Part shown: piece after piece, positions 14,136 through 63,638 of the stretch
Position numbering within the stretch: position 1 is the first letter of the stretch
Layout: every line of letters begins with the position of its first letter
Assembly (NCBI GenBank): GCA_964453435.1
Contig: CAYVQZ010000003.1
Location: forward strand, 24,690-88,689
Direction: 5' to 3'
DNA from: an uncultured bacterium
GTDB lineage: Bacteria > Abyssobacteria > SURF-5
DNA: 64,000 bases
Program-made: the position numbers and the translations under genes
The notes under the pieces: generated by a model
The model's input: only the letters and a program-made list of their open reading frames with translations
The model's database searches: none
Told to the model about the DNA's origin: nothing

Positions 14136-14369
14136 CATCTTGAGCTACGGCGAGGCGCTTTATTTACGGTATTAGGCGGTTGCTTTTTTTATGTCTCGGT
14201 CTGCCAGCGCTCGTGGCAGTGGCATATGACGCCAGGGCGGACTCGAAGAACCGGATGTCGACCAAGTTCTACGGAACAGAATTTCGCACAGACCGGACAG
14301 GCGGGTATAAAGGTGGGGGAAAACTTGATTCACAGAGGTAGTTCGTCGGTGGCGCGCAGAGTGGAGCGC

Positions 14370-34765: not shown

Positions 34766-34816
34766 GGCTTTGTCCTTTGTTGTATTCGATGAAAGCGGCT
34801 TCGTTCAGCCTTTTGT

Positions 34817-37321: not shown

Positions 37322-39131
37322 GAGGTTGGAGGTTCAGTTTTTCGCGTCCGGTGGAAACGATGTTGTCCGGAATGTTGCTGCCCGGCCCTTGCCACCGTGG
37401 TTCCGATGAATCCAATTGTTTGCTCCACGAACCCGCGGGCAACTCGAGCTCGGCCGTTTTTCGGGTTGCGCCGAAATGAAGCGCCAGCAGACCCTCACAA
37501 TTTCCTTTCCAGCGGCGTACGGTCAGGACATCGGTTGATTGATATTCGAAAACCTCCATGTGCTCCTTTCTCAGGCAAGTCAACGCCGGCACGGTCTTTC
37601 TAAGACGAATCAATTCCTTGTAGAAATCGAACAGGACGGCGTGGCGTCCCTCGCGCCGCAGATTGTGATTCAGGCGGGTGCCGACGAATGTTTGCTCATC
37701 CTGAGGGTCAGGGGGTTGGCCCCGCCATTGGAACTGGGCAAATTCCTCTTGTCTGCCCTTTCGCACCGCCTCCACAAGTTCGGGGTCCAAATGGCTCACG
37801 AAATACGGGAAGCGGGCCGTCTCGGCGTACTCTTCCCCCATGAACAGCAACGGAATAGAAGGCGAAAGCAATACCGCTGTGGCTGCCAGCTTCAGGGCTT
37901 CAAAGGGCACCAGCTCGCTCAGGCGCTCGCCCATCATTCGGTTTCCGACCTGGTCGTGGTTCTGGTTGAAGACCACAAACCGGTTTGGATCGATATCGCG
38001 AGAGGAATTGCCGTGGCGTCGACGCCGAAATCGCGAATACCTGCCCGAGTAGACGTAGCCCTCGCGAAAAGCCGTTGCCAGGTCCGTCAATTCCCCAAAA
38101 TCCTGGTAATAGCCGTCTTCCTCTTCTGTGAGCAACGCATGCAAGGCATGATGGAAGTCGTCGTTCCACTGGGCGTCCAGACCAAGCCCCCCGAATTCTC
38201 TCGACCGAATGATTCCGGCGTCGTTCAAATCGCTTTCCGCAATAAGGTAGACTTTTCGGCCCAGACGCTCAGCATGCGCACGCACGGCAAGCGCAAGCTG
38301 TTCGAGGAACGGCTGCGCCGAAAAGTCCAGTATGGCGTGCACCGCGTCAATGCGCAGCGCATCGATGTGAAATTCCGCAATCCAATAGATTGCATTTTCG
38401 ATGAAGAAGTGGCGAACGCCGTCGCTGTATTCGCCGTCGTAATTTACCGCTGCTCCCCACGGGGTCTTGTATCGGTCGGTGAAATACGGGCCATAATCCC
38501 GGAGATAGTTTCCTTCAGGCCCCAGGTGATTGTACACCACGTCCAGGACAACCGCCAGCCCCTTTGCGTGGGCCGCGTTCACGAGCCGCTTCAGCCCTGC
38601 GGGTCCGCCATACGAATTCTGAACGGCAAACGGGTAAGCACCGTCATAGCCCCAATTACGACTGCCCGGAAACTGAGCGACCGGCATAAGTTCTATCGCG
38701 GTTATGTCCAGTTCCTTCAAGTATTCGAGGCGCCGGATAACGGCGTCGAAGACGCCCTCTTGCGAGAAGGTTCCCACATGGACCTCATAGAGTATGTACT
38801 CATCGATGGAAAGGCCGGTCCACCGACCGTCGGTCCAGTCAAATCGGGGATCAATTACCTGCGACGGCTTATGAACGCCTTCCGGTTGAAAACGGGAGGC
38901 CGGGTCGGGACGCTCGATGTTCTCATCCAGCCGGTACAGGTATCGTGTTCCCGGATTCACGCCGTCAACAACCGCCTCATGATAGCCCCATTCGTTATTG
39001 CTCAATGGAACGAGGCGCTCGCGGGGGGCGAGGAGGCGCACCTCGACCCTGTGTGCGAGAGGAGCCCACACGCGAAAGCAACAGCGATTCCCTCCCAGGT
39101 AGTTCGCCCCAAGGCTGACAATCGAGTTCAT
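37284..39131 (-). CDS. treZ: Malto-oligosyltrehalose trehalohydrolase (GH13_10).
   Basis: N-terminal CBM48-like region ([15 protein letters not shown]). The GH13 core has GFDGWRFDAV-like and [13 protein letters not shown] motifs. Length is 615 aa. Confidence 0.9.
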
Positions 39132-41056
39132 ATGTCCTCGCCTTCGCCCTTCAAGAAGAGCGCACCGAGCGGGGGCAGGCTGAGATTCAGGGCATAAGGC
39201 CGTCCGTGGACTTGAACCGGCGCCGCCTCGACTCCTCCCATATTTCCGAAGCCGCTCCCTCCGTACTGCGACGAGTCGCTGTTTAACGCCTCTTTCCAGA
39301 AGCCTCCATGCGGCGCGCCTACCCGGTAATTCTGGCGCGGCACCGGTGTAAAATTCATGACAACAATCACATTATCAGCCGGTGAACGCCCCTTCCTCAG
39401 CAGACTGAGGATGGACTGCTCGGAGTCGTTGCAATCTATCCACTCGAATCCCGCAGGCTCAAAGTCCAATTCGTGGAGCGCCGGCTCGTTTTTGTAAAGG
39501 CTGTTCAAGTCTTCGACCCAGTGTTTCAGTCCCTGATGAGCGGGATAATCCAGCAGGTTCCACTGCAGTCCCTGTTCGTGATACCACTCGTCCCATTGGC
39601 CGAACTCTCCACCCATGAAAAGCAATTTCTTGCCCGGCTGAGAATACATGTATCCGTAAAGTAGTCGCAGGTTCGCAAATTTCTGCCAATCATCGCCCGG
39701 CATCTTTCTCAAGAGAGACCCTTTGCCGTGGACGATCTCATCGTGTGAGAGCGGCAGGACGAAATTTTCGTGGAACGCATACAGCAGGCGGAAAGTCAGC
39801 CGGTTGTGATGGAACTTTCGAAAAACGGGGTCTTTCGACATGTAGTCGAGCGTGTCGTGCATCCACCCCATGTCCCACTTCATGCCGAAGCCTAAACCTC
39901 CGACGTAGGTTGGTGTGGAGACCATCGGCCACGCCGTGGACTCCTCTGCGATGGTCTGGGCCTCGGGAAAGTTTTTGTAGATTTCTTCGTTGAACCGACG
40001 CAGAAACGCTATGGCCTCGAGGTTCTCGTTTCCGCCGTATTTGTTTGGAATCCATTCTCCCTGTCTGCGCGAATAGTCGAGATAAAGCATCGAGGCGACA
40101 GCATCCACGCGGAGGCCGTCGGCATGGTACACATCGAGCCAGAAGAGGGCGCTGCTCAGGAGAAAGCTCTGCACTTCGTCGCGCCCGTAATTGAACACGA
40201 GGCTGTTCCAATCGGGGTGAATGCCTTGTCGGGGGTCGCTGTGTTCATACAGGTGCGTGCCGTCGAAGTAGCCAAGGCCGTGTTCATCGCTCGGGAAATG
40301 AGAAGGCACCCAATCCAGAATCACGCCGATGCCATGCTGGTGAAGGCAATCGATCAGATACATGAAATCCTGGGGGGAGCCATAGCGGCTTGTGGGCGCG
40401 AAGTAACCGAGGCTCTGATATCCCCACGAGCCGTAAAACGGATGTTCCATGACCGGCAGCAATTCCACGTGGGTGTATCCCATGTTCTTCACATACTCCG
40501 CCAGTCTGGGAGCGAGTTCCCGGTAGGAGAGCGACCTGTTTTCCTCCTGGGGCAATCGCATCCATGACCCGACATGAACTTCGTAGGTAGCGAGCGCCGA
40601 ATCGGTCGAATTGTTTCTGCCGCGGTTCTTCATCCATTCTTCATCGCCCCAGGAATAATTCAGGTCCCAGATTATTGAGGCTGTATTGGGGGAAACCTCA
40701 TTGCAGAATGCGAAAGGGTCGGACTTATCGACTCGATAGTTGTTGAATCGTGAGACGATATGATATTTGTATTTTGTTCCGGTGGCGATTGCCGGGATAA
40801 ATCCTTCCCAGATGCCTGAAGCGCCTCGCGCTCGCAATGGATGGCTCGATTTATTCCAATCGTTGAAGTCACCTATGACGGAGACCTTTTCGGCGTTTGG
40901 CGCCCATAGGGCGAACAGGGTTCCTGTCACTTCGTTCTTTTCGCGCATAACGTGCGCGCCCAGTTTATTGTACAGGCGAAAGTGACTGCCCTCGTTGAAC
41001 AGGTATAGGTCGTCCTCCGTCAAGAGGGAAATATCGTATCGCATAAATCCTCCCAT
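39128..41056 (-). CDS. glgB: 1,4-alpha-glucan branching enzyme (GH13_9).
   Basis: [22 protein letters not shown] and [13 protein letters not shown] motifs. Length is 642 aa. There is a 4 nt overlap with treZ. Confidence 0.9.
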
Positions 41057-41102
41057 TTTGTTTGCTCGGTTTGTGAATCCTTTCAGATACTTGTTTCGGC
41101 TA

Positions 41103-44100
41103 TCATCCTTCGGTTTGCAGAAGTTGTTGAATGCCGCGAAGCGGAATCTTCACCCAGTCCGGCCTGTTGTTCAATTCGTAACCGAGCTCATAGATGGATT
41201 TCTCGAGCAGATATGTGTCAAGCAGCATTTTGACCTCCTCCTTCTCGGTGGGAAGGAAACCATCCCGAGCGGCGAAACTCATGTACGACTTGAGAAAGGC
41301 TACGCAAACCCATGCGTGCCAGGCGCCCGCAACATGTTCCAAATATTCGAAATCTTCTTCGCGAAGAATTCCGCTGTCGCGCAGTTGATACAGGGCGGAA
41401 TACGCGGCATAGTGGAACGACCGCAACATGCCGGCGACGTCTCGCAACGGTGAGCGCTTGATTCGGCGTTCGCTCAGAGGGCGCGCGGGCTCTCCCTCGA
41501 AATCGATTATGACAAAATCATTCCCCGTGTACAGCACCTGTCCAAGGTGGTAATCTCCGTGACACCGTATTCGCATAGCCGTTATTTTCTTTTCGAGAAC
41601 CCTTTGAAACCGCTCCAGAATATCTGTCTCGGCCGCCAGAACCGACTGCGCCTCGTCCCGCAGTCCTTCCGGAAGATGCTTCATCCTTCTGCGTAAAAGC
41701 TGACACACTTTTCCGGTAAGGCTGCGAAAGGACTGATAGAGTGACCGTTGATACAACTTTGTAAATGATTCGGGCGCGAAGTCGGAGTCTTCTTTATCCG
41801 TTGCAAGCGCGAGGTGCAGCTCGGCGGTGCGCTGGCCCAAAAGGTAAGCGGACCTCCCGTATGGTCCGACGAGCTCGATGACATTGTCGGACGGGTCCTC
41901 CTGAATGAGGTCCATGAACGCCCGCTCGGGAACATCGAGCTTATCGACTCTGTGGGCCAGGACGTTTTCGAACGTCTGGTTCAGAACGTCTTTGGTGTAT
42001 TCCCAAGCGTCACCCTGGTTTGACACATACCCGTGCAGAATGGCGAGGGTCACAGGTTCGGCCCGTCTTCTCCCGAGTTCGATATGCCCGGCGACCGGCG
42101 GGATGTGCTCGAATTTCTTTTGGGTAAGGAACTTGCCGATCTGAAGGTCGGGATTTATGCCGGGCTCGAGACGCCGGATGAGCTTCAGGATAAGACGCTC
42201 TCCGAAAACAACGGATGTGTTGCTCTGCTCGGCTCTCATGACGGACGGCTCGAGCGGGGATTCGCCGGAACGCAAAATTCGCCGCAGCAGCGGAGTGGAA
42301 GCGGCGACTATTTCTCCTTCTGTGTCCTTCCGGCGGCGGCGCTTCGTTATCGCCTGCAGAAGCGCCTCACAGAATCCTTTGTCCGCCACGGCATCATAGA
42401 GGATTCCACTTGTCTTTCCATCTTTCGTCTCCAGGCGAGCCACGACGGAGAAGGGGGCTTCTTCCATGAGCTTCTCTGCCTGCTCTCCTTCGGCGAACGT
42501 GAGAGGAAGCAGATACGTTTCCGCGTCTCCGTCAAGATAATCGACGTTCAGAAAGACAAAATACGCCGGATGGAGATCTCCCGGCATGGGAAGCGCGTCT
42601 TTGACTGTCACAGCCTTAAGGGGGCGTCCTTTTCCGCCAAACCAGCGGCACACCTGCAGGTAATCGGGCAGGGTCGCCTGGAGCGCGGCCTTTTGTCTGC
42701 CGCGGAACACGGTCTGCCATTCTCCCGCAATGGAAAGAGAGGGCAAGCGGGAAACATATGTGGAGACGTCAATGTTTTCAGTCGCGACACGCTGCGGCCG
42801 CAGCGAGAACCAGTAGAAAGTGTGTGGCCCGAGGGTGAGAAGATACGGCAAATCGCCTATTTGCGGAAACTCCGTTTGACCGAACAGTTCGACGGGAACC
42901 ATGCCTTTGTATGCGTGCAAGTCCAATTCGACGTACTGGACAAACCTCGACAGGTTCGCCACGACAAGAATGCATTCGTCATCATGACAGCGGATGAAGG
43001 CCAATATTTTCCTGTTTTCCGGGTGCAGGAATTCTATGGAGCCCCGTCCGAAGGCCTTGTGTTGCTTTCTCATGGCGATGATGCGTTTCATCCACCAGAG
43101 CAAAGAATGGGGGTTACTCTGCTGCGCTTCGACGTTGATTGCGTCGAAGTGGTATTCGGGTTCAATGATGACGGGCAGATACAATTTCTGCGGACTTGAC
43201 GAGGAGAACCCGGCGTTGCGGTCGGAACTCCACTGCATAGGGGTTCGCACGCCGTTCCGGTCACCGAGGTACACGTTATCTCCCATTCCGATTTCGTCGC
43301 CATAATAGATAACGGGTGTCCCTGGCAGCGAGTAGAGCAACCCGTGCATGATCTCGATTCGTTTGCGGTCATTCCCGAGGAGAGGCGCCAGCCGCCTGCG
43401 GATACCCAGATTGATCCTCATTTGGGAGTCCTGAGCGTAGACCCGGTACATGTAATCGCGTTCCTCATCGGTGACCATTTCCAAAGTGAGTTCATCGTGA
43501 TTGCGCAGAAACAGCGCCCACTGACAAGAATCGGGGATAGCCGGTGTCTGTTCCAGGATGTCGATAATGGGAAAGCGGTCTTCCATACGAAGCGCCATGA
43601 ACAGGCGCGGCATGAGCGGGAAATGAAAAGCCATATGGCATGCATCGTCGTCGCCGAAATAGGCAACGGCGTCTTCCGGCCATTGATTCGCCTCGGCGAG
43701 AATCATTCGGTTTGTAAACCTCTCGTCGACGTGAGCCCGCAGCTTTTTCAGGAAGTCATACGTCTCAGCCAAGTTTTCGCAGTTTGTCCCTTCCCGCTCA
43801 TAGAGATAGGGCACGGCATCCAGCCGCAGGCCGTCCACCCCCGTTTGGAACCAGAAATCAATGACCCGAAGGATTGCCCTCTGCACCTCGGGATTATCGT
43901 AATTCAGGTCTGGCTGGTGAGAATAGAACCGGTGCCAATAGTATGCTTTCGCGACAGGGTCCCACGTCCAGTTCGACGACTCGAAGTCTTTGAAAATGAT
44001 GCGCGCCTCTTTGTAGCGGTCCGGCGTTTCGCTCCACACGTAGAAATCGCGCCAGCGGCTTCCCCTCCTGGCGCGACGGGCCCGCTGATACCACGGATGC

Positions 44101-44456
44101 TGGTCGGAGGTGTGGTTCACGACCAGTTCGGTGATGACACGCAGGCCGCGCCTGTGGGCCTCCCGCAAAAACGCCCTGAAGTCGCGTATTGTTCCATACG
44201 ATGGATGGATCCCCCGATAGTAGGATATGTCATAGCCGTCATCCTTCAAAGGCGACGGGCAGAACGGCAGCAGCCAGATTGCGCCGACACCCAGGTCGTG
44301 AAGGTAGTCAAGTTTTTCGATCAGCCCCTTGAAATCACCTATGCCGTCGCCGTCGCTGTCCCGAAACGCTTTGACATGCAGTTCATAAATCACGCTGTCT
44401 TTGTACCACAGGGGATCGTCTTCCAATGCCGTTAATTCGGCCTTTCGGTCGGCCAT
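41103..44456 (-). CDS. treS: Trehalose synthase (maltose alpha-D-glucosyltransferase) fused to maltokinase (Pep2/Mak).
   Basis: The N-terminal roughly 600 aa matches TreS ([28 protein letters not shown]...[11 protein letters not shown]). The C-terminal roughly 450 aa is aminoglycoside-kinase-like maltokinase. Total length is 1117 aa. Confidence 0.9.
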
Positions 44457-44471
44457 ATCAACTCCTGAGTT

Positions 44472-46529
44472 CTACATGAAATAATCGAAGTCACGCTCGG
44501 TTCGAATCCGCCGCCTCACTTTGAAGATGTGAGCCGGCGCCACTTGGGGATTGACCTCCACGTAATTACTCGAGCCGTACCAGAGGTAGCGCGAATCGCT
44601 CAACAGGTCGTGCACTTGATAGGGTTGATGTAGGTCAAACCCGAAGGAGGAAACAGGGAGTTCGAGCCACCCCGCATGCGTGTGATGGGGGTCCAGATTC
44701 ACGACCACCAGGATAATGTTGGTCAAGTCGTCGGTGTGCTTGCTGTAACATATCAGTTGTTCGCTGTCTATCTCATGAAATTCGAGATTCGCGTCGCTTT
44801 GCAGCGCGATGTTTTCGCGGCGTATCCGGTTCACGCGCCTGATGATTCCCCTGAGACTGTCGGAACGCTCGATGTCCCAGTGCCTGACTTGATACTTTTC
44901 GGAATCCAGATACTCCTCGCTCCCAAACTCGCGGGCCCGGTTCTCGCACAGTTCGAAGGCAGGCCCGTAGACTCCATAATTGGAGCCGAGCGTTGCGGCA
45001 AGTATCAGGCGGGCGATGAAAGCCGGCCGTCCTCCCATCTGGAGATATTCCGTTAGAATATCCGGTGTGTTTGGCCACAGGTTAGGCCGGAAATATTCCC
45101 GCACCCCGGAATCCGAGAGGTGCGTGAAATATTCCATAAGTTCCCACTTCGTATTCCGCCAGGCGAAATACGTGTAGGACTGGCTAAATCCCGACTTGGC
45201 AAGTCGATACATCACCTTGGGGCGGGTGAACGCCTCAGAGAGAAAAACAGTCTCCGGATAGTCTCTTTTCACCCCCTCGATGAGCCATTCCCAAAAAGGA
45301 AGCGGCTTTGTATGTGGATTGTCCACTCGGAAGACACGGATACCTTTATCGATCCAGAAAAGCACGACACTCTTCAGCTCTTCCCAGAGCTCCTTCCAGT
45401 TATCGGTCTCAAAACAGAATGGGTAGATGTCTTCATACTTTTTGGGCGGATTCTCGGCGTACTGAATGGAGCCGTCCGGACGGAGCAGAAACCACTCCGG
45501 ATGCTCTTTTACATAGGGATGGTCCGGGGTACACTGAAACGCAATGTCGATCGCAACCTCGATGCCGTACTCACGGGCTTTGCGCACAAGGCTCACCATG
45601 TCGTTTATGGCGCCGAGTTGGGGATGCACGGCCATGTGTCCTCCTTCGGCGGAGCCAATCGCCCACGGACTACCCGGGTCATCCGGTTCGGCAACCGGCG
45701 CATTATTCTTCCCCTTCCGGTTTGTCTCGCCGATGGGATGTATGGGTGGCAGATAAAGCACATCGAATCCCATTCCCGCAATGTAAGGCAGGCGAGCCTC
45801 GCAATCTTTCAGGGTTCCGTGCGTACCGGGTTCGGGAGCGCAGGACCGCGGAAACATTTCGTACCAGGCGCTGAAACGCGCCCTCTCTCGGTCCACAACC
45901 ACTTGAAGCTCCTTGTACGTCGTCGCGAATGAGATGGCCTGATAGTCTGACATCAGGGATGCCAATTCATCGCTGAAGGCGACCTCCGCAACGCTGTCCG
46001 GCCGGTCGCCAGAGCGCAGCAATCCCGCATATTCGCGGAGCTTGTCCCCGGCTGACCTCGGGGCGCGCAACGCCGCTTGTTCGACCATCTCGGCGCCGAA
46101 AAGGAGATCAACCGAGACTTCGAGGCCGGCTTCGACTTTCTTCTCGAGCCCGCGCCGCCATGTCTTGAATCCGTCAACGCACGCCCGCACCGTGTATACA
46201 TATCTGCCGATATAGGCGACTTCGAAGCAACCACGCCATCGGTCATTCAGCAAAAAATGCATCGGCGTCTCGCTCCAGCTCGAGGCCGATTCCGTTCGGT
46301 AAAGCAGCGAACAGGAAAGAGAGTCGTTGCTGTCCGCAAAAATGTCGGCTTCGACAACCACTTGCTCGCCGACCGCTCGCTTTATGGGAAAACGGCCACA
46401 ATCGATTTCTGGTGTAACTCCCTCTATTACGACACGCTTACGACCTTCTTCCGGCGCCATATCCTCCCTTCCTTTTTTGAATCCGCTTCGACCGGCGCAT
46501 AACGACGATTTCATTGAAGTATAGCACAC
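44472..46529 (-). CDS. glgE: Alpha-1,4-glucan:maltose-1-phosphate maltosyltransferase. The start may be the internal MAPEEG at about 46460.
   Basis: CGRFPIKRAVGE N-domain and LPPIHPIGETNRKGKNN...GSPWAIGS GlgE signature region. Length is 685 aa. Confidence 0.9.
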   Translation of the reverse strand: MCYTSMKSSLCAGRSGFKKGREDMAPEEGRKRVVIEGVTPEIDCGRFPIKRAVGEQVVVEADIFADSNDSLSCSLLYRTESASSWSETPMHFLLNDRWRGCFEVAYIGRYVYTVRACVDGFKTWRRGLEKKVEAGLEVSVDLLFGAEMVEQAALRAPRSAGDKLREYAGLLRSGDRPDSVAEVAFSDELASLMSDYQAISFATTYKELQVVVDRERARFSAWYEMFPRSCAPEPGTHGTLKDCEARLPYIAGMGFDVLYLPPIHPIGETNRKGKNNAPVAEPDDPGSPWAIGSAEGGHMAVHPQLGAINDMVSLVRKAREYGIEVAIDIAFQCTPDHPYVKEHPEWFLLRPDGSIQYAENPPKKYEDIYPFCFETDNWKELWEELKSVVLFWIDKGIRVFRVDNPHTKPLPFWEWLIEGVKRDYPETVFLSEAFTRPKVMYRLAKSGFSQSYTYFAWRNTKWELMEYFTHLSDSGVREYFRPNLWPNTPDILTEYLQMGGRPAFIARLILAATLGSNYGVYGPAFELCENRAREFGSEEYLDSEKYQVRHWDIERSDSLRGIIRRVNRIRRENIALQSDANLEFHEIDSEQLICYSKHTDDLTNIILVVVNLDPHHTHAGWLELPVSSFGFDLHQPYQVHDLLSDSRYLWYGSSNYVEVNPQVAPAHIFKVRRRIRTERDFDYFM

Positions 46530-46641: not shown

Positions 46642-47700
46642 TTATTGAGCGATTTGCCGGAATTCTGCGCGCATCTTCGGCAAACTGTCGGGATAGTTTC
46701 TCTGCACAAACTCGATGAGTTTCTCTCTCACGATGCATCGGAGCTCCCAGGCGCTCGATGAATCCGAGGCGCTCACAAGAGCTCGCAGCTCCACTGTTCT
46801 TTCCGTGCTGTTCGTTACCTGCAGCACGCATACCTTGCCGTCCCACTTGTCCGAGCTTTTCACAATCTGGTGCAACTGCTCCCGTATTTCCCCGGTCGGA
46901 ACGGTATAGTCGACATAAAGAAAAACTGCGCCAAGCAGGTCGGCGGAGACGCGGGTCCAGTTCTGGAACGGTTTTTCGAGAAAATAAGTGATCGGCACGA
47001 CCAAGCGTCTCAGGTCCCAGATGCGAACAACCACATATGTGAGCGTAATTTCCTCGATTCGTCCCCACTCGTTTTCGACTATGACAACGTCATCGATACG
47101 AATGGGACCGGTCATGGCAATCTGAAAGCCGGCCAAAAGCGTCGCGATCGTTCTCTGTGCCGCAAAACCGATGATGATACCCGCAATACCCGCCGAGGCC
47201 AGGATGCTGGTACCCAGTTGCCGGACTTTGTCAAACGTCATCAAGACAACAGCCAAGGCGAGCACTCCTACCACAACCATAACCACTCTTTTCAGCATCT
47301 GAATCTGTGTATGAATTTTCCGGGCTTGAAGATTGTCTTTCACGTCGACCCTGTACTGACTGAGAATGATGTCTTCCCCAACATACGCCAGCTTGATGAT
47401 AAGCCAGGCGACGGAAAGGATCAGGACGACGCTGAACGCCTGGTTGAGAAACACCCCGATGTTGGGAGAAACCGCAACCAGCGGCAGCAAAAGGTGAATG
47501 ACAACAAGGGGGATAATCACTCGCGACGGTGCGCGACAGTGCTTTACGAATGACGTGCCGAGAGTCGACTTGGTTCTTTCCGAAACTGTCCGAAAAATTT
47601 TGAAAATAACATAGTGGGCTATCAACCCCAAAACGACTGCCACACCGAGAATAACGACCGGTCGTAACAACTCTTCCCAATCCAAGAGCAGGTCTTTCAT
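46642..47700 (-). CDS. mscS: Small-conductance mechanosensitive channel (MscS family).
   Basis: The pore-lining helix region IIIGFAAQRTIATLLAGFQIAMTG is followed by the beta-domain DDVVIVENEWGRIEEITLTYVVVRIWD. Confidence 0.8.
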   Translation of the reverse strand: MKDLLLDWEELLRPVVILGVAVVLGLIAHYVIFKIFRTVSERTKSTLGTSFVKHCRAPSRVIIPLVVIHLLLPLVAVSPNIGVFLNQAFSVVLILSVAWLIIKLAYVGEDIILSQYRVDVKDNLQARKIHTQIQMLKRVVMVVVGVLALAVVLMTFDKVRQLGTSILASAGIAGIIIGFAAQRTIATLLAGFQIAMTGPIRIDDVVIVENEWGRIEEITLTYVVVRIWDLRRLVVPITYFLEKPFQNWTRVSADLLGAVFLYVDYTVPTGEIREQLHQIVKSSDKWDGKVCVLQVTNSTERTVELRALVSASDSSSAWELRCIVREKLIEFVQRNYPDSLPKMRAEFRQIAQ

Positions 47701-48132
47701 TTTTCTCTCTCCTTGATATTTCTCCCGTCTTTCCGAGCGCCCTTATAATCAATACGCGTCAACACTCTTCTTCCGAGCGGTTTGCTTAAACTTATCGAAT
47801 TTCCAATTCGAACGCAAACAGGGCAAAGAAGGTAACGAAATGAATTCCCTGCGGGAAAAGGCAAGCGGGAACATCCTGCCAATTGGATTGCGGTTGCCAT
47901 CGGGGGTTGGGACCAACTACTCGACAAACTTGACACTTCCGCGCCGGGCTCGATAGAATGAACCATCGGAAGCCATCAGCCCCCGCTGATTCTATCTTAA
48001 ATAGAATTTAATTATTGAAAACAACCACTCTCCGGTTTTTTCCGGGCGCCTTGATCAGGGTAACGGGAGATAGCGATCAATCGTCAACAATACATTCTCA
48101 TAGTCGATGCCGATAAGCACTCGCAAAATCGA

Positions 48133-49425
48133 ATGAAGGCCGCATTGCGAGACGAAAACACCGCCTGTGATTGCGTTGCGGATTTCCTGTCGGCTGTGAA
48201 AATGCTTTCGAAGAAGACATACGACCTGGTTCTCACCGAGCTGAGCCTTCCGGACAGGGCCGGGCAAGAACTTGTCAAGTTGATAGCCGAGAAAAGCCCT
48301 TCCACTCAGATTCTTGTTGTCACATCTTCCGGCGATTCCCGTAAAGTCAGCGAATGCATGGAAATAGGGGCCTTCAATTATCTGCGCAAACCCTTCAAGC
48401 CCGGTCAGCTTCGGTTTCTGGCCAAGACGGCCTTCGACACGCAGCCGCCGAAAAGCGAAAACCTGTTTCTCGAGGGAAGGGAGGCCTTCAGCCAAACAGA
48501 CAACCTGGTTGGGAGAAGCCGGGCCATGCAGAAGGTATACGGACAGATACGCCTTGCGGCGAGCACCGATATTGATGTCCTCCTCACCGGGGAAAGCGGT
48601 ACGGGCAAAGAACTTGTGGCCCGCTCCATTCACCGCGAGAGCAAGCGGTGTGAGGGACCATTCATCGCGGTGAACACGGGCGCCATCGAGTCCAACCTGA
48701 TTTCCAGCGAACTGTTCGGACATGTGAGAGGCGCGTTCACCGGCGCCAGGAACACCCGGAAGGGAATGTTCGAGATGGCGCATGGCGGCACCCTGTTTCT
48801 CGATGAACTCAGCACAATGGACGAACAGACCCAGATAAGCCTTCTTCGCGTATTGGATAACAAGGTGATCACTCGCGTCGGCGGCTCCAAACCAATAAAG
48901 GTGGATGTGCGGATAATAGCCGCCTCAAATGCAATTCTGGAACAAGAGGTTGAATCCGCCCGTTTTCGGGAGGATGTGTATCATCGCCTGAACGTATTCA
49001 CGGTCCACATGCCGCCTCTGCGCAAGCGCACATCCGACATCAAGATTCTTGCCGCCGTCTTCGTCGACCAGTTTTCCCGCGAATTCAATAAGAATATCCG
49101 GGGCATTTCAGAAGAGGCGCTCGCGCTTCTGGAAAATTACGCGTGGCCCGGCAATGTGCGAGAATTGAAAAACTCGATTCAACGGGCTGTGTTGTTGGCT
49201 GAGAGCGATATGATCATTCCGTCCGTGCTGCCGGACCGGTTGCACAGGAAACGTGATGTCTCAACAGGGGTTGCGCTGAAAGTCGGGATGACATTGGAAG
49301 AGGCGGAGCGCGCTCTGATTGCGGCAACGCTTTCGCACGTGAACGGGAACAAGAAGAAGGCTTCGGAGATTTTGGGGATAAGCCGCAAGTGCATGTATAA
49401 CAAGATTAGCAAGTACGCCCTTTGA
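48133..49425 (+). CDS. Sigma-54-dependent transcriptional activator (NtrC-family enhancer-binding protein) with an atypical, N-terminally ambiguous receiver domain.
   Basis: AAA+ domain with GESGTGKE Walker A and the GAFTGA motif. C-terminal Fis-type HTH (ASEILGISRKCMYNKI). Receiver residues are encoded upstream of the annotated ATG, see findings. Confidence 0.85.
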   Translation: MKAALRDENTACDCVADFLSAVKMLSKKTYDLVLTELSLPDRAGQELVKLIAEKSPSTQILVVTSSGDSRKVSECMEIGAFNYLRKPFKPGQLRFLAKTAFDTQPPKSENLFLEGREAFSQTDNLVGRSRAMQKVYGQIRLAASTDIDVLLTGESGTGKELVARSIHRESKRCEGPFIAVNTGAIESNLISSELFGHVRGAFTGARNTRKGMFEMAHGGTLFLDELSTMDEQTQISLLRVLDNKVITRVGGSKPIKVDVRIIAASNAILEQEVESARFREDVYHRLNVFTVHMPPLRKRTSDIKILAAVFVDQFSREFNKNIRGISEEALALLENYAWPGNVRELKNSIQRAVLLAESDMIIPSVLPDRLHRKRDVSTGVALKVGMTLEEAERALIAATLSHVNGNKKKASEILGISRKCMYNKISKYAL

Positions 49426-49704
49426 TTGTATATTTATTACACAGAACTCTCGAACATCGCGCCGCCGGTTGTTTTTTCCGTTATATCAGCGATTTTTGAC
49501 AGGCCAAAAAATCGGGGATGTGAAGAATGTGCTCATTTTTTTCGGATATATCGATTATGAGTATTATTTATACATACTACCCCATAATTTTCCCGCATTA
49601 ACGCCGTTCCAACTCTCCTTCCGCAGGATTTTCAACTTTTTCAAAATTAGAACCTCTTTCTTTTCACAGGGTTAGCAGAGGGGCTTCTTAAGAGACCCGC
49701 TCTT

Positions 49705-57985: not shown

Positions 57986-59523
57986 CCGAGTATTTCGAGT
58001 TTTTTCTATCCCGTTCGCCGGAAATCGCCTGGCTCACGGTCGAGCACATACGGATAACCCTGGTCTCGGTGGCGCTGGCGGTGCTGCTCGGCGTGCCGAC
58101 CGGAATCATCCTCGTGAGAATCCGGCGGCTGGCCACGCCTGTCATTGGGGCGACGAGCGTAATCCAGACGATTCCGAGCCTCGCCCTTCTCGGTTTCATG
58201 ATTCCCTTGCTCGGAATCGGCGTCAAACCGGCCATCGTGGCGCTGTTTCTTTACGCTCTGCTGCCAATAGTCAGAAACACATATACGGGGGTCGACCAGG
58301 TGGACCCGGCGCTGATAGAGGCCGGCATCGGGATGGGAATGACGAACCGTCAAATGCTGCGGAGGGTGCAAATTCCGCTTTCATTGCCCGTGATAATGGC
58401 GGGAGTCAGAACCTCGACAGTCATCAATGTGGGCGTAGCCACGCTGTGCGCGCTCATCGGCGCCGGCGGGCTTGGCGAGCTTATCTTCCGCGGAATCGCG
58501 ATGGTGAACAGCCAGATGATTATTGCGGGAGCCCTGCCGGCCGCCCTCTTGGCGCTCGTTTTCGACGGAGTACTCGGACTCATCGAGAAAGGGCTCATGG
58601 CGAGGAAACGCTTTTCGCCGAAGCTCCTGGCGGGTGTCGGTTTCTCGAGCTTGCTCTTCCTCGCGGCTCTTATCCCGTCCGAGTACGCGAAAAAAGATGC
58701 GCGGAAAATCACAATCGGGTCCAAGGAATTCACCGAACAAATTATCCTGGGTGAGATCATGGCCCAGTTGATTGAATCAAACACCGACGTGTCCGTGACC
58801 AGAAAGTTCGGACTGGGCGGCACTATGGTCTGTTTCAACGCCTTGACAAATGGCGACATCGACGTGTATCCCGAATACACCGGCACCGGCTTGACGGCGA
58901 TCCTGGCCCGGCAGGCAATCTCGGACCCGAAAGAGGTGTTTCGTATCGTAAGCGAGGAGTTCGAGCGCGAATACAACCTGGTCTGGCTGAGTCCGTTCGG
59001 TTTTAACAACACGTATGCGCTCGCCATGAGAGAACAACACGCCGAAAAGCTCGGAATCGAGAAAATAAGCGATTTGGCCGGGCATGGGCAAAGACTGCGG
59101 CCGGGCTTCACCCAGGAATTCCTCGAACGGCCCGACGGGTATCCGGGCCTCAGGCGGCATTACGGTCTGGCCTTCGCCCGCGAACCCAAGGGAATGGACC
59201 CCGGAATCATGTATATCGCGCTCAGGGAAAGAGATGTCGATCTTATTTGTGCATTCGCCACGGACGGGCGCATTCCGGCTTTCAACTTGCGGGTTCTCGA
59301 GGATGACAAGCACTATTTTCCTCCGTATTATGCAGCCCCCCTCGTGCGCGGGGAGACGCTTGCTCGCATCCCCGAACTGAGCGGCGTTTTGGGCAAGCTG
59401 GCCGGCCTCATCGACGACGCAAAGATGGCCGAACTGAATTATGAGGTGGACGAGCAGGGACGGTCGCCCGAGGCGGTCGCTTCCGCCTTTCTCCAAGAGG
59501 CGGGGTTGACCACAAACGGATGA
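57982..59523 (+). CDS. Fused ABC permease plus substrate-binding protein (OpuCB-OpuCC-like) for quaternary ammonium compatible solutes.
   Basis: The N-terminal roughly 210 aa is a BPD-type permease with the EAA loop IEAGIGMGMTNRQMLRRVQIPLSLP. The C-terminal roughly 300 aa is an OpuAC-type binding domain (DIDVYPEYTGTG). Confidence 0.85.
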   Translation: MTEYFEFFLSRSPEIAWLTVEHIRITLVSVALAVLLGVPTGIILVRIRRLATPVIGATSVIQTIPSLALLGFMIPLLGIGVKPAIVALFLYALLPIVRNTYTGVDQVDPALIEAGIGMGMTNRQMLRRVQIPLSLPVIMAGVRTSTVINVGVATLCALIGAGGLGELIFRGIAMVNSQMIIAGALPAALLALVFDGVLGLIEKGLMARKRFSPKLLAGVGFSSLLFLAALIPSEYAKKDARKITIGSKEFTEQIILGEIMAQLIESNTDVSVTRKFGLGGTMVCFNALTNGDIDVYPEYTGTGLTAILARQAISDPKEVFRIVSEEFEREYNLVWLSPFGFNNTYALAMREQHAEKLGIEKISDLAGHGQRLRPGFTQEFLERPDGYPGLRRHYGLAFAREPKGMDPGIMYIALRERDVDLICAFATDGRIPAFNLRVLEDDKHYFPPYYAAPLVRGETLARIPELSGVLGKLAGLIDDAKMAELNYEVDEQGRSPEAVASAFLQEAGLTTNG

Positions 59524-59560: not shown

Positions 59561-61051
59561 ATGAGCGGCATCATAGCGATATATGGTCCCGACGCGGAGA
59601 ACGAGAAGGAACTCGCCGAAGAAATGCTTTCGAGAATAAGGCATCGCGGGCCGAGTTTCGCCAATATCTTTTCTGACACCGGCGTAATCCTGGGTTTTGT
59701 GGGAAAAGGAACGCCTTCGGAATCCTCCGGTTTGCCGTATCGGGACAAGAACGGCTCTCAGGCGGTTACATGTGACGCCGAGATATACAATGCCGACACG
59801 CTTCTGTCGGCCTCGCAAACGGATGCGTCCTTCGAAGCCAACAGCGCACGGGCAATCGTGAATGCGTATAAGCAGGACGGCGAAACCTTTGTGAGGAATC
59901 TCGACGGCCAGTTCAGTTTCGTCCTTTTCGACAACGGCGACCTTGTCGCGGCGCGGGACCCTCTCGGTGTCATTCCCCTTTATACTGCTGAACGAGACGG
60001 ACTGAAATTATTCTCATCGGAACTGAAATGCCTGAGCGGGCTGGCATCGAACATACAAGAATTTCCCCCGGGAAGGCTATTCCATTCCCGGTCGGGTTTC
60101 CGCCGATATTGCAGCCTGGAGCCGGAAATCTCGGAGAATCAATCCGTTGATTCGCTGTGCGCACAATTGAGGGAGTTGCTCGAGGTTGCGGTTCGAAAGC
60201 GGCTGGAGTGCTGCGACAAGAAAAAAGGAGTGTTCTTGAGCGGAGGGGTGGACAGCAGCGTTATCGCGGCGGTGGTGAGCAAGTTCCTGCCGGGAGTCGA
60301 TTCCTTCACCGTCGGCATGGAGAACGGCGAAGATGTTCCGAATGCCCGACTCGTGGCAAAGCATTTGGGGACGAATTCCCATGTACATATTTTTGAGATC
60401 GCTGAGGTTCTCGAAGTCCTTCCGAAGGTACTATATCACCTCGAATCGTTCGACGCGCCGCTGGTGCGCAGCGCGACCGCAAACTACATAGCGAGTGGTA
60501 TGGCGTCACAGGTTGTCGACACGATATTAATCGGGGAAGGCGGAGATGAGAACTTCGGAGGGTACCATCATGTGAAAAGGTTCAAATCGCCCGAAGAACA
60601 GCAGAAAGAGTTCATAAACCTTATGTTGGCTCTTCACAACATGGGCTTCATGAGAACCGACCGAATGAACTGGGCGCATTCCTTAAATGTGAGAGCACCG
60701 TTTTTCGACTCGGCGGTCGTGAACCTGGCCATGAGCATTCATCCCAAGCTGAAACTGTACGGTGATGAACAAATCGAGAAATGGATTTTGCGGAAAGCGT
60801 TCGAAGACTATCTTCCCGAGGAGGTCGTCTGGCGTCCCAAGAAGCAGTTTGCGCGCGGCTCCGGCTCCGATGACCTTCTCACGCGACATGCGGAAAGCGA
60901 AATCAGCGATTCGGACTTCGACAATGGCAAAAGACGTTACCCCGACATCGAGTTCCGCTGGAAAGAGGAATGGTGGTACTTCACGATTTTCAGGGAGCGC
61001 TTCGGCGACGACCCCTCAACGCTGTCCACGGTGGGCCGCTGGTACGAGTAG
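59561..61051 (+). CDS. Asparagine synthetase (glutamine-hydrolysing)-like amidotransferase, paralog 1, with Ser instead of the catalytic Cys at position 1.
   Basis: The start is ATG at 59561, with GGAG 6 nt upstream. The ORF track's TTG at 59555 is rejected. The protein begins MSGIIAIYG, where class II GATases begin MCG. Asn-synthetase PP-loop is SGGVDSS. Confidence 0.8.
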   Translation: MSGIIAIYGPDAENEKELAEEMLSRIRHRGPSFANIFSDTGVILGFVGKGTPSESSGLPYRDKNGSQAVTCDAEIYNADTLLSASQTDASFEANSARAIVNAYKQDGETFVRNLDGQFSFVLFDNGDLVAARDPLGVIPLYTAERDGLKLFSSELKCLSGLASNIQEFPPGRLFHSRSGFRRYCSLEPEISENQSVDSLCAQLRELLEVAVRKRLECCDKKKGVFLSGGVDSSVIAAVVSKFLPGVDSFTVGMENGEDVPNARLVAKHLGTNSHVHIFEIAEVLEVLPKVLYHLESFDAPLVRSATANYIASGMASQVVDTILIGEGGDENFGGYHHVKRFKSPEEQQKEFINLMLALHNMGFMRTDRMNWAHSLNVRAPFFDSAVVNLAMSIHPKLKLYGDEQIEKWILRKAFEDYLPEEVVWRPKKQFARGSGSDDLLTRHAESEISDSDFDNGKRRYPDIEFRWKEEWWYFTIFRERFGDDPSTLSTVGRWYE

Positions 61052-62738: not shown

Positions 62739-63638
62739 GTGATTGAATCTCACATTATGGCTTACATCGTCATTGTATCCGCTGTCGGCGTCATCGTGAT
62801 TTGGTGGCTGCGCCGAACCATAACCATGGTCGAGGAGCAGCGGCGGAAGCGACTGCAAACGCTGAATCGCTTCGACGCAGCCGTGCACACGGAATCTCCG
62901 CATGAGAATCCCCTCATCCAGGCGCGCAAGCTGGCGCTCGAAAGCCTCAGCAGCCGCTTCAGTATTCTCAGGCGTTTGCTCATTCCGGCGGTCTTCCTGC
63001 TCTGGCTCGTCGCGCTCGCTTACCCCTTCCTCGGGAACGTGCCTGCAAACGTCGTGTCGCTCATGGTGGCGGCCGCCACGGTGATCGTCGGTATCGCCGC
63101 GAAACCCTATGTCGAGAATCTTATCTCCGGAATCGTCATATCGTTTTCGCGCCTTGTGCGCATCGGCGACACCCTGCTGATTGATGGCAATTATGGAACC
63201 GTCGAAGACATCACCATCACGCACACGCTCGTGAAGATATGGGACTGGAGACGGTACATCATTCCGAACTCGCGCATGCTCGAAAAAGAATTCATCAATT
63301 ACTCCATCGTCGACACATACCAGTGGGCGTACGTCGAGTTCTGGGTGGATCATGACGCGGACATCGAGCGGGTCCGGGAGATTGCCGTACGGGCCGCGTC
63401 CTCGAGCGACCATTTCGCAAATTATGAGGCTCCCCGGTTCTGGCTCATGGAGATGGGCAAAGAGGGAATAAAGTGCTGGGTGGCGGCATGGGCGCAATCG
63501 CCCGCAGACGCCTGGCTGCTCAAAAACGAGATTCGCACCGAACTGGTTCGAGAATTGGCACAGGCCGGAATTCGGACCCATACCTATCGGATAGATGGCT
63601 TGGAGGCTTTGAAGGACACTATGGAACCGCGGAAGTGA
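62739..63638 (+). CDS. MscS-family mechanosensitive channel paralog, a shorter form.
   Basis: IVGIAAKPYVENLISGIVISFSRLVRIGDTLLIDGNYGTVEDITITHTLVKIWD is homologous to the pore and beta-domain of the channel at 46642-47700. Confidence 0.7.
   Translation: MIESHIMAYIVIVSAVGVIVIWWLRRTITMVEEQRRKRLQTLNRFDAAVHTESPHENPLIQARKLALESLSSRFSILRRLLIPAVFLLWLVALAYPFLGNVPANVVSLMVAAATVIVGIAAKPYVENLISGIVISFSRLVRIGDTLLIDGNYGTVEDITITHTLVKIWDWRRYIIPNSRMLEKEFINYSIVDTYQWAYVEFWVDHDADIERVREIAVRAASSSDHFANYEAPRFWLMEMGKEGIKCWVAAWAQSPADAWLLKNEIRTELVRELAQAGIRTHTYRIDGLEALKDTMEPRK

What the first reader, a model, noticed from the sequence alone, without database searches (positions are those of the whole stretch)
48060..48330. 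Sigma-54 activator whose receiver has Glu at the phospho-acceptor site and no canonical start codon
The residues encoded upstream of the annotated ATG (YILIVDADKHSQNR-M-KAAL...TYDLVLTELSLPD) form a textbook receiver beta1/acid pocket. The only in-frame sense stretch between an upstream TAA and ILIVDAD contains no ATG, GTG or TTG, only ATA, ATC or ATT. So either translation starts at a rare codon or the protein begins in helix 1 and lacks beta1. The phospho-acceptor position reads E (DLVLTE) where D is expected. In NtrC the D54E substitution gives partial phosphorylation-independent activity. This suggests an EBP that has escaped histidine-kinase control, and no kinase gene is nearby.
Basis: seen in the sequence. 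Interest (0 to 1): 0.6.

Follow-up and report, generated by a model that had tools for sequence, protein, structure and literature searches.

The report
Kinase-free sigma-54 activator missing its ATG
This is a real sigma-54 transcription activator from a small Hydrogenedentota lineage whose "receiver" switch domain has glutamate instead of the phosphorylatable aspartate in every relative, and this genome's copy has also lost its normal start codon; it is an ordinary kind of degenerate receiver with one unresolved local oddity.

Summary
Strand beta1 of the receiver (YILIVDAD, 48091-48114) lies upstream of the first ATG (48133). Between the in-frame TAA (48061-63) and that ATG there is no ATG, GTG or TTG. 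The phospho-acceptor position is Glu (GAG 48238-40). Two independent assemblies from other read sets are identical here, so this is not an assembly error.

The Glu is not a private mutation. All 10 clade members found (61-78% identity, Hydrogenedentota) have Glu, encoded by GAA or GAG. All 8 in which the beta1 region is present, this window included, lack the second acid-pocket Asp. Thr and Lys are kept in most. This is the commonest type of aspartate-less (pseudo-) receiver.

No histidine kinase lies in the 64-kb window or in the ortholog loci examined. Full-length orthologs start with ATG (one GTG) about 14 codons before beta1, so only this genome lacks a canonical start.

The candidates are ATC 48076, which sits 6 nt after a GGGAG; a truncated product from ATG 48133 or TTG 48145; or a frameshifted ancestral start at TTG 48051.

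The activator's likely target is a conserved sigma-54 promoter (49705-49720) with three upstream repeats. It drives a second, stand-alone Glu-type pseudo-receiver (49818-50180) and a corrinoid/MttB methyltransferase cluster. Interest is low to moderate.

The parts
47930..47959 (+). Sigma-70-type promoter of the activator gene (TTGACA-18-TAGAAT, 11 of 12 matches)
   Evidence: Promoter scan. The same CTTGACA...TAnAAT element lies upstream of the orthologs in L003, L084, L085 and L087.
48051..48116 (+). Out-of-frame 21-codon ORF, TTG...TAA (MIRVTGDSDQSSTIHSHSRCR*). It is a possible relic of the ancestral start, or a uORF ending 17 nt before ATG 48133.
   Evidence: Translation. TTG lies 46 nt before the LIVD codons, against 42 nt in four orthologs. 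Codons 6-8 (GGA GAT AGC) resemble GAA AAT AGT at codons 6-8 of L084. The similarity is not statistically significant (p=0.14).
48061..48063 (+). In-frame TAA that bounds the activator reading frame upstream
48065..48069 (+). Shine-Dalgarno-like GGGAG, 6 nt before ATC 48076
   Evidence: Many genes of this window carry AGGAG or GGAGG 4-10 nt before their start. The background frequency of GGAG/GAGG at 5-9 nt is 4.2%.
48076..48078 (+). ATC, the best candidate for a near-cognate start codon. The product would be 449 aa, beginning M-NRQQYILIVDAD.
   Evidence: Inference from the SD spacing. AUC initiates at about 1-2% of AUG in E. coli and gives N-terminal Met (bioRxiv 10.1101/063800).
48088..48114 (+). 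Beta1 strand and remnant acid pocket (QYILIV-D11-A12-D13). The second acidic residue has been lost.
   Evidence: Pfam alignment, AF2 secondary structure, ortholog alignment.
48133..48135 (+). First canonical ATG (Met20). It is an internal alpha1 residue, not an ancestral start.
   Evidence: There is no SD upstream.
48145..48147 (+). TTG used by the database gene call (426-aa P0001). A weak AAGG lies 5 nt upstream.
48238..48240 (+). GAG = Glu55 at the phospho-acceptor position
48076..49425 (+). Sigma-54 activator gene. Layout: pseudo-receiver (to about 48440), linker, AAA+ sigma-54 interaction domain (about 48505-49005, with GAFTGA at 48730-47 and Walker A at 48589), lid, HTH_8 (about 49291-49416), stop at 49423-25.
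   Evidence: Pfam, NCBIfam, PDB match to NtrC1 4L4U at 313 bits.
49427..49443 (+). Upstream repeat 1 (TGTATATTTATTACACA), a putative enhancer site
   Evidence: Equivalent sites sit directly after the activator stop codon in L003, L085, L088 and L170.
49519..49535 (+). Upstream repeat 2 (TGTGAAGAATGTGCTCA, one mismatch to the motif)
   Evidence: Read from the sequence. Its spacing to repeat 3 is 39 nt, against 39-41 nt in orthologs.
49558..49574 (-). Upstream repeat 3 (TGTATAAATAATACTCA on the minus strand)
49705..49720 (+). Sigma-54 promoter TGGCGC-N5-GTGCA (-24/-12), 113 nt before the ATG of the small gene
   Evidence: There is one TGGCNN-N5-NTGC element per intergenic region, 82-92 nt before the small gene, in L003, L085/L086, L087 and L088. 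A matching element in L170 was read by eye.
49818..50180 (+). Stand-alone 120-aa pseudo-receiver. It has Glu at the acceptor-equivalent position, no acid pocket and no Lys. The block E54-E64 (EQDTYEMDCLE) is almost entirely invariant.
   Evidence: 67% identity to the neighbour of the L003 ortholog. Sub-threshold Response_reg hits in 4 of 4 members. Alignment A4. AF2 pLDDT 85.7 with (beta/alpha)5 topology. Foldseek TM 0.75-0.82 to receiver domains. The family is a single 50%-identity cluster among 1.84 billion representatives.
50281..59523 (+). Downstream same-strand cluster, probably co-transcribed. Contents: corrinoid protein, MetH-activation-like protein, MttB-family methyltransferase x2, pterin-binding methyltransferase, SAM methyltransferase, OpuA-type betaine ABC transporter.
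   Evidence: Pfam. The same order follows the small gene in L088, L170 and a 16-kb JGI contig. No terminator or conserved element lies in the 100-nt gap.

Best explanation
The gene encodes a functional sigma-54 enhancer-binding protein of a small Hydrogenedentota-restricted clade. Its N-terminal domain is an inherited pseudo-receiver. It has Glu at the acceptor and has lost the Mg2+-binding Asp, while Thr and Lys are retained. It therefore cannot take a phosphoryl group from a histidine kinase and must be controlled in some other way.

It is transcribed from a conserved sigma-70-type promoter. It most likely binds three 17-bp TGT-N11-(A/T)CA-type repeats just after its own stop codon. From there it would activate a conserved sigma-54 promoter 280 nt downstream. 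That promoter expresses a second, stand-alone Glu-type pseudo-receiver and, in this genome and at least three others, a corrinoid/MttB-type methyltransferase plus betaine-transporter cluster.

In this genome alone, the canonical start codon of the activator has been lost by mutation. The most likely present-day start is the near-cognate ATC at 48076, served by GGGAG 6 nt upstream. This would give a low level of full-length protein.

Shown: domain architecture; Glu and pocket loss across the clade; absence of a kinase nearby; conservation of promoter, repeats and small gene; reproducibility of the sequence.

Inferred: DNA binding to the repeats; activation of that promoter; use of ATC; the mode of control.
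For: Architecture and intact catalytic motifs: Pfam Sigma54_activat 3e-66, lid, HTH_8 and Response_reg 4.7e-22; GAFTGA and Walker A/B present; best solved relative is NtrC1 at 313 bits.

Glu clade: 10 of 10 relatives have Glu, with both GAA and GAG codons. The second pocket Asp is replaced by A, N, T, G or S in all relatives where that region is present. Of the 120 nearest activators, 86 keep D with a [DE]D[DEQ]/[TS]/K signature.

No kinase in 64 kb, nor among the called genes of the ortholog loci L003, L085, L087, L088 and L170.

Target: one -24/-12 element per intergenic region at a fixed distance from the small gene in five independent loci (regex), and in a sixth by eye (L170). Seven specified bases give about 0.02 expected per 400 nt. 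There are 2-3 copies of the 17-bp motif at conserved spacing.

Start: sequence identical in three assemblies. GGGAG-N6-ATC matches the SD usage of the window's genes against a 4.2% background. The beta1 codons still spell the clade motif although the closest full-length relative is only 73% identical. That is expected if the segment is still translated. AUC initiates at about 1-2% of AUG.
Against: No experiment or expression data support any start.

The SD-like motif could be fortuitous. Four near-cognate codons are available, so the chance that one has an SD is roughly 10-15%.

Orthologs carry about 14 residues before LIVD, but an ATC start would leave only 7.

The TTG 48051 frame has the ortholog-like distance and a faint N-terminal resemblance. 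This favours a frameshift origin, in which GGGAG is merely codons Thr-Gly-Asp.

The repeat motif was derived from the same sequences in which it was then counted.

Co-transcription of the methyltransferase cluster is inferred only from synteny and the lack of a terminator. In L003 the small gene is followed by unrelated genes.
Confidence: 0.55

Rival explanations
1. The protein is made from ATG 48133, or from TTG 48145 as in the database gene call. It therefore lacks beta1, the beta1-alpha1 loop and most or all of alpha1. The pseudo-receiver cannot fold. The AAA+ and DNA-binding part acts alone: constitutively active if the domain is normally inhibitory (as in NtrC1 and DctD), or inactive if it is normally required (as in NtrC).
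For: These are the only canonical start codons in frame. TTG 48145 has a weak AAGG 5 nt upstream and was chosen by the gene caller. The out-of-frame ORF from TTG 48051 ends 17 nt before ATG 48133, which would permit termination-reinitiation. The best solved relative is NtrC1. From my own knowledge, removal of the NtrC1 receiver activates the protein.
Against: ATG 48133 has no SD, whereas most genes here have one. Met20 is an internal alpha1 residue shared with P0002, which starts normally. If the upstream 57-70 nt had been untranslated for long, the ILIVD codons should have decayed, yet they are intact. The rest of the pseudo-receiver is the most conserved part of the clade alignment (TYDLVLTELxLPDxxGxELVKLIAEKSPSTQI), which argues that the domain matters.
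Confidence: 0.28
2. The ancestral start corresponds to TTG 48051, and an insertion of 1 nt (or 4 nt) near 48081 shifted the frame. The gene is then a recently frameshifted allele. It would be a pseudogene in the making, rescued only by reinitiation, near-cognate initiation or rare +1 frameshifting.
For: TTG 48051 lies 46 nt before the LIVD codons, against 42 nt in four orthologs. Removing T 48081 gives MIRVTGDSDQRQQYILIVD, compared with MARTSTDVSMRKFILIVD in L170 and P0004. Codons 6-8 (GGA GAT AGC) compare with GAA AAT AGT in L084.
Against: The N-terminal similarity is not significant (empirical p=0.14). TTG has no SD, and all but one of the full-length orthologs use ATG (L087 is called with GTG). 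The scenario needs two mutations. The remaining 430 codons, the promoter, the repeats and the sigma-54 promoter are all intact. The allele is identical in three read sets.
Confidence: 0.14
3. The missing start is a sequencing or assembly error, and the real gene has a normal ATG.
For: The window appears to come from a metagenome assembly. A single base change (ATC to ATG) would repair the gene.
Against: Two independent assemblies from other runs are base-for-base identical over 47960-48160. The region has no homopolymer longer than 3 nt around 48060-48135.
Confidence: 0.03

Closest known systems
Aspartate-less receivers (ALR) / pseudo-receivers with Glu at the acceptor, e.g. Chlamydia ChxR (PMC4395418, PMC12632262)
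   Same: The domain is recognised as a receiver, with the acceptor Asp replaced by Glu. The first acidic residue is kept and the second is lost. Thr and Lys are kept. There is no partner kinase. This is exactly the modal ALR substitution pattern.
   Different: ChxR is an OmpR-type DNA binder. Here the output is an AAA+ sigma-54 activator, and a second stand-alone pseudo-receiver is encoded under its presumed control.
NtrC D54E (Klose, Weiss and Kustu 1993, cited in PMC4395418)
   Same: Glu at the phosphorylation site of a sigma-54 activator. In NtrC it gives partial phosphorylation-independent activity.
   Different: That is an engineered change in an otherwise intact pocket with a cognate kinase. 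Here the Glu is natural, clade-wide and accompanied by loss of the Mg2+-binding Asp. The closest solved relative is NtrC1 rather than enteric NtrC. Whether Glu55 activates is untested, and Glu replacement has been shown not to explain activity in some pseudo-receivers.
Pseudomonas FleQ (with FleN) and Vibrio VpsR
   Same: Sigma-54-type activators whose N-terminal receiver-like domain is not phosphorylated and which are controlled by a partner protein or ligand (PMC12632262; PDB hits 8p53 and 7v2b).
   Different: The N-terminal domains of FleQ and VpsR are covered by separate Pfam models, and their AAA+ domains bind c-di-GMP. The window protein scores as a normal Response_reg domain at 78.7 bits and shows no FleQ or VpsR domain match. 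The partner here would be a receiver-fold protein, not a MinD-like ATPase.
Aquifex aeolicus NtrC1 (PDB 1NY5, 4L4U)
   Same: Best solved relative over the full length. The receiver, linker and AAA+ domain align almost without gaps.
   Different: NtrC1 has the acceptor Asp and a continuous helical linker. Here the acceptor is Glu, and the linker carries a clade-conserved QPP and is modelled at low confidence (pLDDT about 56).
Genes with non-AUG/GUG/UUG starts, e.g. E. coli infC and pcnB (AUU)
   Same: A near-cognate ATH codon preceded by a good SD would give weak initiation.
   Different: In infC the AUU is conserved and regulatory (own knowledge). Here all but one of the full-length orthologs use ATG (the other is called with GTG), so the ATC, if used, is a recent makeshift and not an evolved device.

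Membership tests
Bacterial enhancer-binding protein (sigma-54 activator, NtrC family) | AAA+ sigma-54 interaction domain with Walker A, Walker B and the GAFTGA loop | tested here: met
   PF00158 at 3e-66. GESGTGKE, LFLDE and GAFTGA are present.
Bacterial enhancer-binding protein (sigma-54 activator, NtrC family) | C-terminal Fis-type HTH DNA-binding domain | tested here: met
   PF02954 at 5.9e-12.
Bacterial enhancer-binding protein (sigma-54 activator, NtrC family) | A -24/-12 promoter with upstream enhancer sites as target | tested here: met
   TGGCGC-N5-GTGCA at 49705-20 is conserved in five further loci, and 17-bp repeats lie upstream. Binding and activation are not testable here.
Bacterial enhancer-binding protein (sigma-54 activator, NtrC family) | ATP-dependent open-complex formation with sigma-54 RNA polymerase | not testable with these tools
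   Needs biochemistry. The presence of rpoN in this genome could not be checked from the window.
Canonical two-component response regulator (phospho-accepting receiver) | Receiver (CheY-like) fold | tested here: met
   PF00072 at 78.7 bits. The AF2 model is (beta/alpha)5 with pLDDT above 90 over residues 11-120.
Canonical two-component response regulator (phospho-accepting receiver) | Asp at the end of beta3 as phospho-acceptor | tested here: not met
   Glu55 (GAG 48238-40). Glu is present in 10 of 10 clade members.
Canonical two-component response regulator (phospho-accepting receiver) | Two acidic residues after beta1 that bind Mg2+ | tested here: not met
   The sequence is D11-A12. The second position is A, N, T, G or S across the clade, against [DE]D in 86 canonical relatives.
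Canonical two-component response regulator (phospho-accepting receiver) | Conserved Thr/Ser (beta4) and Lys (beta5) | tested here: met
   T83 and K105-P106.
Canonical two-component response regulator (phospho-accepting receiver) | Cognate histidine kinase, usually adjacent | tested here: not met
   No HisKA or HATPase_c domain in the 50 scanned ORFs of the window or among the called genes of ortholog loci. A distant orphan kinase cannot be excluded.
Aspartate-less receiver / pseudo-receiver | Scores as a receiver domain but lacks the phosphorylatable Asp | tested here: met
   The substitution pattern matches the ALR statistics of PMC4395418.
NtrC1/DctD-type negatively regulated activators | Continuous coiled-coil linker joining alpha5 to the AAA+ domain and holding an inactive dimer | tested here: inconclusive
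   The linker aligns to that of NtrC1 with a single one-residue gap. However, it contains a conserved QPP and is modelled as broken helices at pLDDT about 56.
Genes with an evolved non-canonical start codon (infC type) | The non-canonical codon is conserved among orthologs | tested here: not met
   Orthologs start with ATG, and one is called with GTG.
Genes with an evolved non-canonical start codon (infC type) | Experimentally determined N-terminus at that codon | not testable with these tools
   Needs proteomics or ribosome profiling.

The most novel reading that the evidence does not exclude
The activator's Glu-type pseudo-receiver and the small Glu-type pseudo-receiver it induces form a kinase-free, receiver-on-receiver regulatory pair. 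Both conserve the beta3-alpha3 face almost invariantly (TYDLVLTELxLPDxxGxELVKLIAEKSPSTQ in the activator; LLxVE[QE]DTYEMDCLEL in the small protein). The small protein would bind the activator's receiver, or a ligand or metal through its E/D/E/D/C loop, and so feed back on sigma-54-dependent expression of a quaternary-amine (betaine-type) demethylation operon. In this genome, loss of the ATG would then be a way of lowering or uncoupling the activator within that circuit.
Probability: 0.2. Interest if true: 0.55.

Novelty: new member of a known kind. Interest (0 to 1): 0.3.

Why it matters
The finding shows that the Glu is a stable, selected state of a lineage-specific sigma-54 activator and not a sequencing quirk or a one-off activating mutation. 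It also gives a concrete, testable regulon: a conserved sigma-54 promoter, three enhancer-like repeats, a partner pseudo-receiver and a corrinoid/MttB methyltransferase cluster, all in an uncultured phylum (Hydrogenedentota).

Pseudo-receivers are common, but their control mechanisms are largely unknown (PMC12632262). A tightly linked pair of them around an AAA+ activator is a convenient system in which to ask how such domains are regulated.

The missing start codon matters mainly for annotation. The current gene call (426 aa from TTG) cuts off beta1 and alpha1. It should be flagged as having a non-canonical start or a disrupted 5' end.

Tried and rejected
(1) A genome-contig scan with the protein returned only generic activators of 43% identity or less, mostly from Myxococcota. 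It found no orthologs, so it was useless for the start-codon question.

(2) A metagenome-contig scan found one close relative (L089, 78% identity), but it is 5'-truncated at residue 51. It only added another Glu acceptor.

(3) A permutation test asked whether the TTG 48051 peptide resembles ortholog N-termini. It gave p=0.14. The true orthologs themselves reach only p=0.005-0.11, so the tails are too variable to decide.

(4) An RNA fold of the leader and start region (47966-48160) gave z=0.01, with no special structure. Rfam found nothing in the leader or intergenic regions.

(5) Programmed +1 frameshifting from the TTG 48051 frame was considered because GGGAG precedes the shift zone. It was rejected as a main explanation, because there is no slippery codon or in-frame stop of the prfB type at the right place.

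(6) Assembly error was rejected on the basis of three identical assemblies.

(7) An FleQ/VpsR-type N-terminal domain was rejected, because the domain scores as an ordinary Response_reg.

(8) A search for a terminator or second promoter between the small gene and the corrinoid gene found none.
Full report
**Observation**

The activator reading frame is that of ATG 48133 and ends at 49425. Upstream, the nearest in-frame stop is TAA 48061-63. The 23 codons between them read REIAINRQQYILIVDADKHSQNR and contain no ATG, GTG or TTG.

The Pfam receiver profile aligns from its first position to the Ile at 48094. In an AlphaFold model numbered from ATC 48076, beta1 is residues 5-10 and alpha1 is residues 14-23. 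The first ATG (Met20) therefore lies inside alpha1. The TTG at 48145, which the public gene call P0001 (426 aa) uses, lies just after alpha1.

The acceptor position is Glu55, GAG 48238-40. Two independent assemblies from other sequencing runs are identical to the window over 47960-48160.

**What the gene is**

The protein has the full architecture of a sigma-54 enhancer-binding protein. It has a receiver (78.7 bits), a sigma-54 interaction AAA+ domain (3e-66), a lid and a Fis-type HTH. Walker A, Walker B and GAFTGA are intact. It falls below every NCBIfam equivalog cut-off, so it belongs to no named subfamily. Its best solved relative is Aquifex NtrC1, at 313 bits, aligned from ILIVDAD to the C-terminus with Glu55 opposite the NtrC1 acceptor Asp.

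**The Glu is a clade character**

Only a handful of close relatives exist among 5.8 billion proteins. They are P0002-P0009 (61-74% identity), one of which is annotated as coming from a Candidatus Hydrogenedentota bacterium (P0003; contig CP070779.1, 3.5 Mb). Two more came from loci L089 and L170.

Every one that covers the site has Glu, written TEL, IEL, VEL or VET and encoded by either GAA or GAG. In all those whose N-terminus is present, the second acid-pocket residue is A, N, T, G or S. The first Asp and the Lys are kept in all, and the Thr in all but one (P0003 has Ala).

Among the 120 nearest activators, 86 have Asp at the acceptor with a [DE]D[DEQ] pocket plus Thr/Ser and Lys. The 9 with Glu are this window's protein and 8 clade members. 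A separate group of 21 has Ser at the acceptor and has also lost Lys.

The clade's pattern is the modal pattern of aspartate-less receivers. Glu is the commonest replacement (26%). The first acidic residue is retained in 65% and the second in only 29% (PMC4395418). [quoted passage not shown]

No histidine-kinase domain occurs in any of the 50 large ORFs of the window that were scanned. None occurs among the called genes around the orthologs. It is an old, inherited state, however, and not a recent D-to-E event.

**The start codon**

All full-length orthologs begin with ATG about 14 codons before LIVD (one is called with GTG). The lack of a canonical start is private to this genome. Three readings remain.

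(A) Near-cognate initiation at ATC 48076.
- GGGAG (48065-69) lies 6 nt upstream.
- Many genes in the window carry AGGAG or GGAGG 4-10 nt before their start.
- Such motifs precede only 4.2% of arbitrary positions.
- In E. coli, AUA, AUC, AUU and CUG initiate at about 1-2% of AUG, and AUC gives an N-terminal Met (bioRxiv 10.1101/063800).
- The beta1 codons still spell the clade motif although the nearest full-length relative is only 73% identical. This is easier to explain if the segment is still under selection.

(B) A truncated product from ATG 48133 or TTG 48145.
- The ATG has no SD, and it corresponds to an internal M/I/V position of alpha1 in orthologs.
- The TTG has only a weak AAGG upstream.
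- Such a product would lack the central strand of the sheet.

(C) A frameshift origin.
- TTG 48051 opens a 21-codon ORF in another frame.
- It lies 46 nt before the LIVD codons, against 42 nt in orthologs.
- Deleting T 48081 would give MIRVTGDSDQRQQYILIVD, compared with MARTSTDVSMRKFILIVD in L170.
- The resemblance is not significant (p=0.14).

I put roughly 0.45 on A as the main source of protein, 0.28 on B, 0.14 on C as the history (C is compatible with A or B as the present mechanism), and 0.03 on error. Sequence alone cannot decide.

**Target and partner**

In every locus where downstream DNA is available, the activator is followed after about 350-460 nt by a 117-121-aa gene. This holds for the window, L003, L085/L086, L087, L088 and L170.

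Each intergenic region contains exactly one -24/-12 element, 82-113 nt before that gene. The window has TGGCGC-N5-GTGCA, and the orthologs have TGGCA[CT]-N5-[GA]TGC[AG]. About 0.02 such elements are expected per region.

Upstream lie three 17-bp quasi-palindromic repeats of the TGT-N8-[TA]AC[ACT]C[AG] type at conserved spacing:
- The first begins within about 10 nt of the activator stop codon.
- The second lies about 90-105 nt further on.
- The third lies 39-41 nt after the second.

In the window these are 49427-43, 49519-35 (one mismatch) and 49558-74. The motif was defined from these same regions, so only its positional conservation counts as evidence.

The small protein gives sub-threshold receiver hits in 4 of 4 members. 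It is modelled as a (beta/alpha)5 fold (pLDDT 85.7) and matches solved receiver domains at TM 0.75-0.82. It has Glu at the acceptor-equivalent position, no acid pocket and no Lys. The block E54-E64 (EQDTYEMDCLE) is almost entirely invariant. The family is a single 50%-identity cluster among 1.84 billion representatives, and the next hits are generic receivers.

In the window, in L088, in L170 and on a 16-kb JGI contig, the small gene is followed on the same strand by a corrinoid protein, a MetH-activation-like protein, an MttB-family methyltransferase and a pterin-binding methyltransferase. The window adds a second MttB, a SAM methyltransferase and an OpuA-type betaine ABC transporter. No terminator or conserved element lies in the 100-nt gap.

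My inference is that the activator drives a sigma-54 operon for quaternary-amine demethylation, and that the first gene product of that operon is a candidate feedback partner.

**Comparison and novelty**

Functionally, this resembles the known activators with non-phosphorylated receiver-like domains, namely FleQ with FleN and VpsR. It also resembles Glu-type pseudo-receivers such as ChxR. From my own knowledge, the idea of an operon-encoded modulator recalls PspA acting on PspF and HrpV acting on HrpS.

As to membership, the protein meets the tests for an enhancer-binding protein and for an aspartate-less receiver. It fails the tests for a canonical response regulator: the acceptor Asp, the metal-binding Asp and the adjacent kinase are all absent. 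It also fails the test for an evolved non-canonical start, because orthologs use ATG.

It is therefore a new member of a known kind. The paired pseudo-receivers are the only potentially new feature, and they remain untested.

**Verdict**

The Glu is ordinary for its class. The missing start is a genuine but unresolved local lesion or makeshift. Interest is 0.3.

Noticed in passing
window 52687-52786 (+), inside the MttB-family gene 51688-53184: Sub-threshold Rfam match to PYLIS_3, the pyrrolysine insertion sequence of mttB (33.9 bits against a gathering score of 38; E=5e-4). It begins at about codon 334, where Pyl-type MttB has its UAG. This ORF has no in-frame stop there, so it is a non-Pyl MttB homologue, and the hit probably reflects coding homology.
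   Followed up: partly
window 16973-16988 (-): A perfect sigma-54 consensus, TGGCACGAGGTTTGCA, is the only zero-mismatch hit in the window. It lies inside the pseudouridine-synthase ORF 16687-17430 (-). No obvious downstream gene on that strand was identified.
   Followed up: no
Proteins P0044, P0046, P0049-P0054 and others: A second, larger group of related activators also lacks the acceptor Asp. These have Ser at the acceptor, a D[KE]G pocket and Leu instead of the conserved Lys, and account for 21 of the 120 best hits. Loss of the phospho-acceptor has therefore happened repeatedly among these activators.
   Followed up: partly
window 49977-50009 (small protein residues 54-64): The block EQDTYEMDCLE in the beta3-alpha3 loop of the stand-alone pseudo-receiver is invariant except at its second residue (Q or E) across all 17 family members. 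Being rich in acidic residues plus one Cys, it suggests a binding, metal or redox site.
   Followed up: partly
window 30470-46529 (-): A long minus-strand alpha-glucan cluster lies upstream. It contains GH77 4-alpha-glucanotransferase, several alpha-amylase-family proteins, GH57, GlgB-like, a TreS-maltokinase fusion (1117 aa) and GlgE. An MscS-like channel follows at 46642-47700, and a second MscS-like gene lies at 62739-63638. Together with the betaine transporter, the neighbourhood looks geared to osmoadaptation.
   Followed up: partly
window 3803-6058 (-) and 9452-16625 (+): Four paralogous sulfatase-domain proteins of about 750-800 aa, three of them in tandem, sit next to glycosyltransferase genes.
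   Followed up: no
window 59561-61051 and 61205-62686 (+): Two tandem asparagine-synthase (glutamine-hydrolysing) paralogues lie directly after the betaine ABC transporter.
   Followed up: no
window 47975-47990 and 48033-48046 (+), 5' leader of the activator: Two small hairpins lie in the leader. ATCAGCCCCCGCTGAT, just after the predicted transcription start, was flagged as terminator-like. The other is the palindrome CCGGTTTTTTCCGG. The whole leader folds no better than shuffled sequence (z=0.01).
   Followed up: partly
window 48055-48783 (-) and 53991-55307 (-): Long antisense ORFs of 242 aa and 438 aa overlap the activator and the second MttB gene. They are most likely shadow ORFs of the coding strand.
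   Followed up: no
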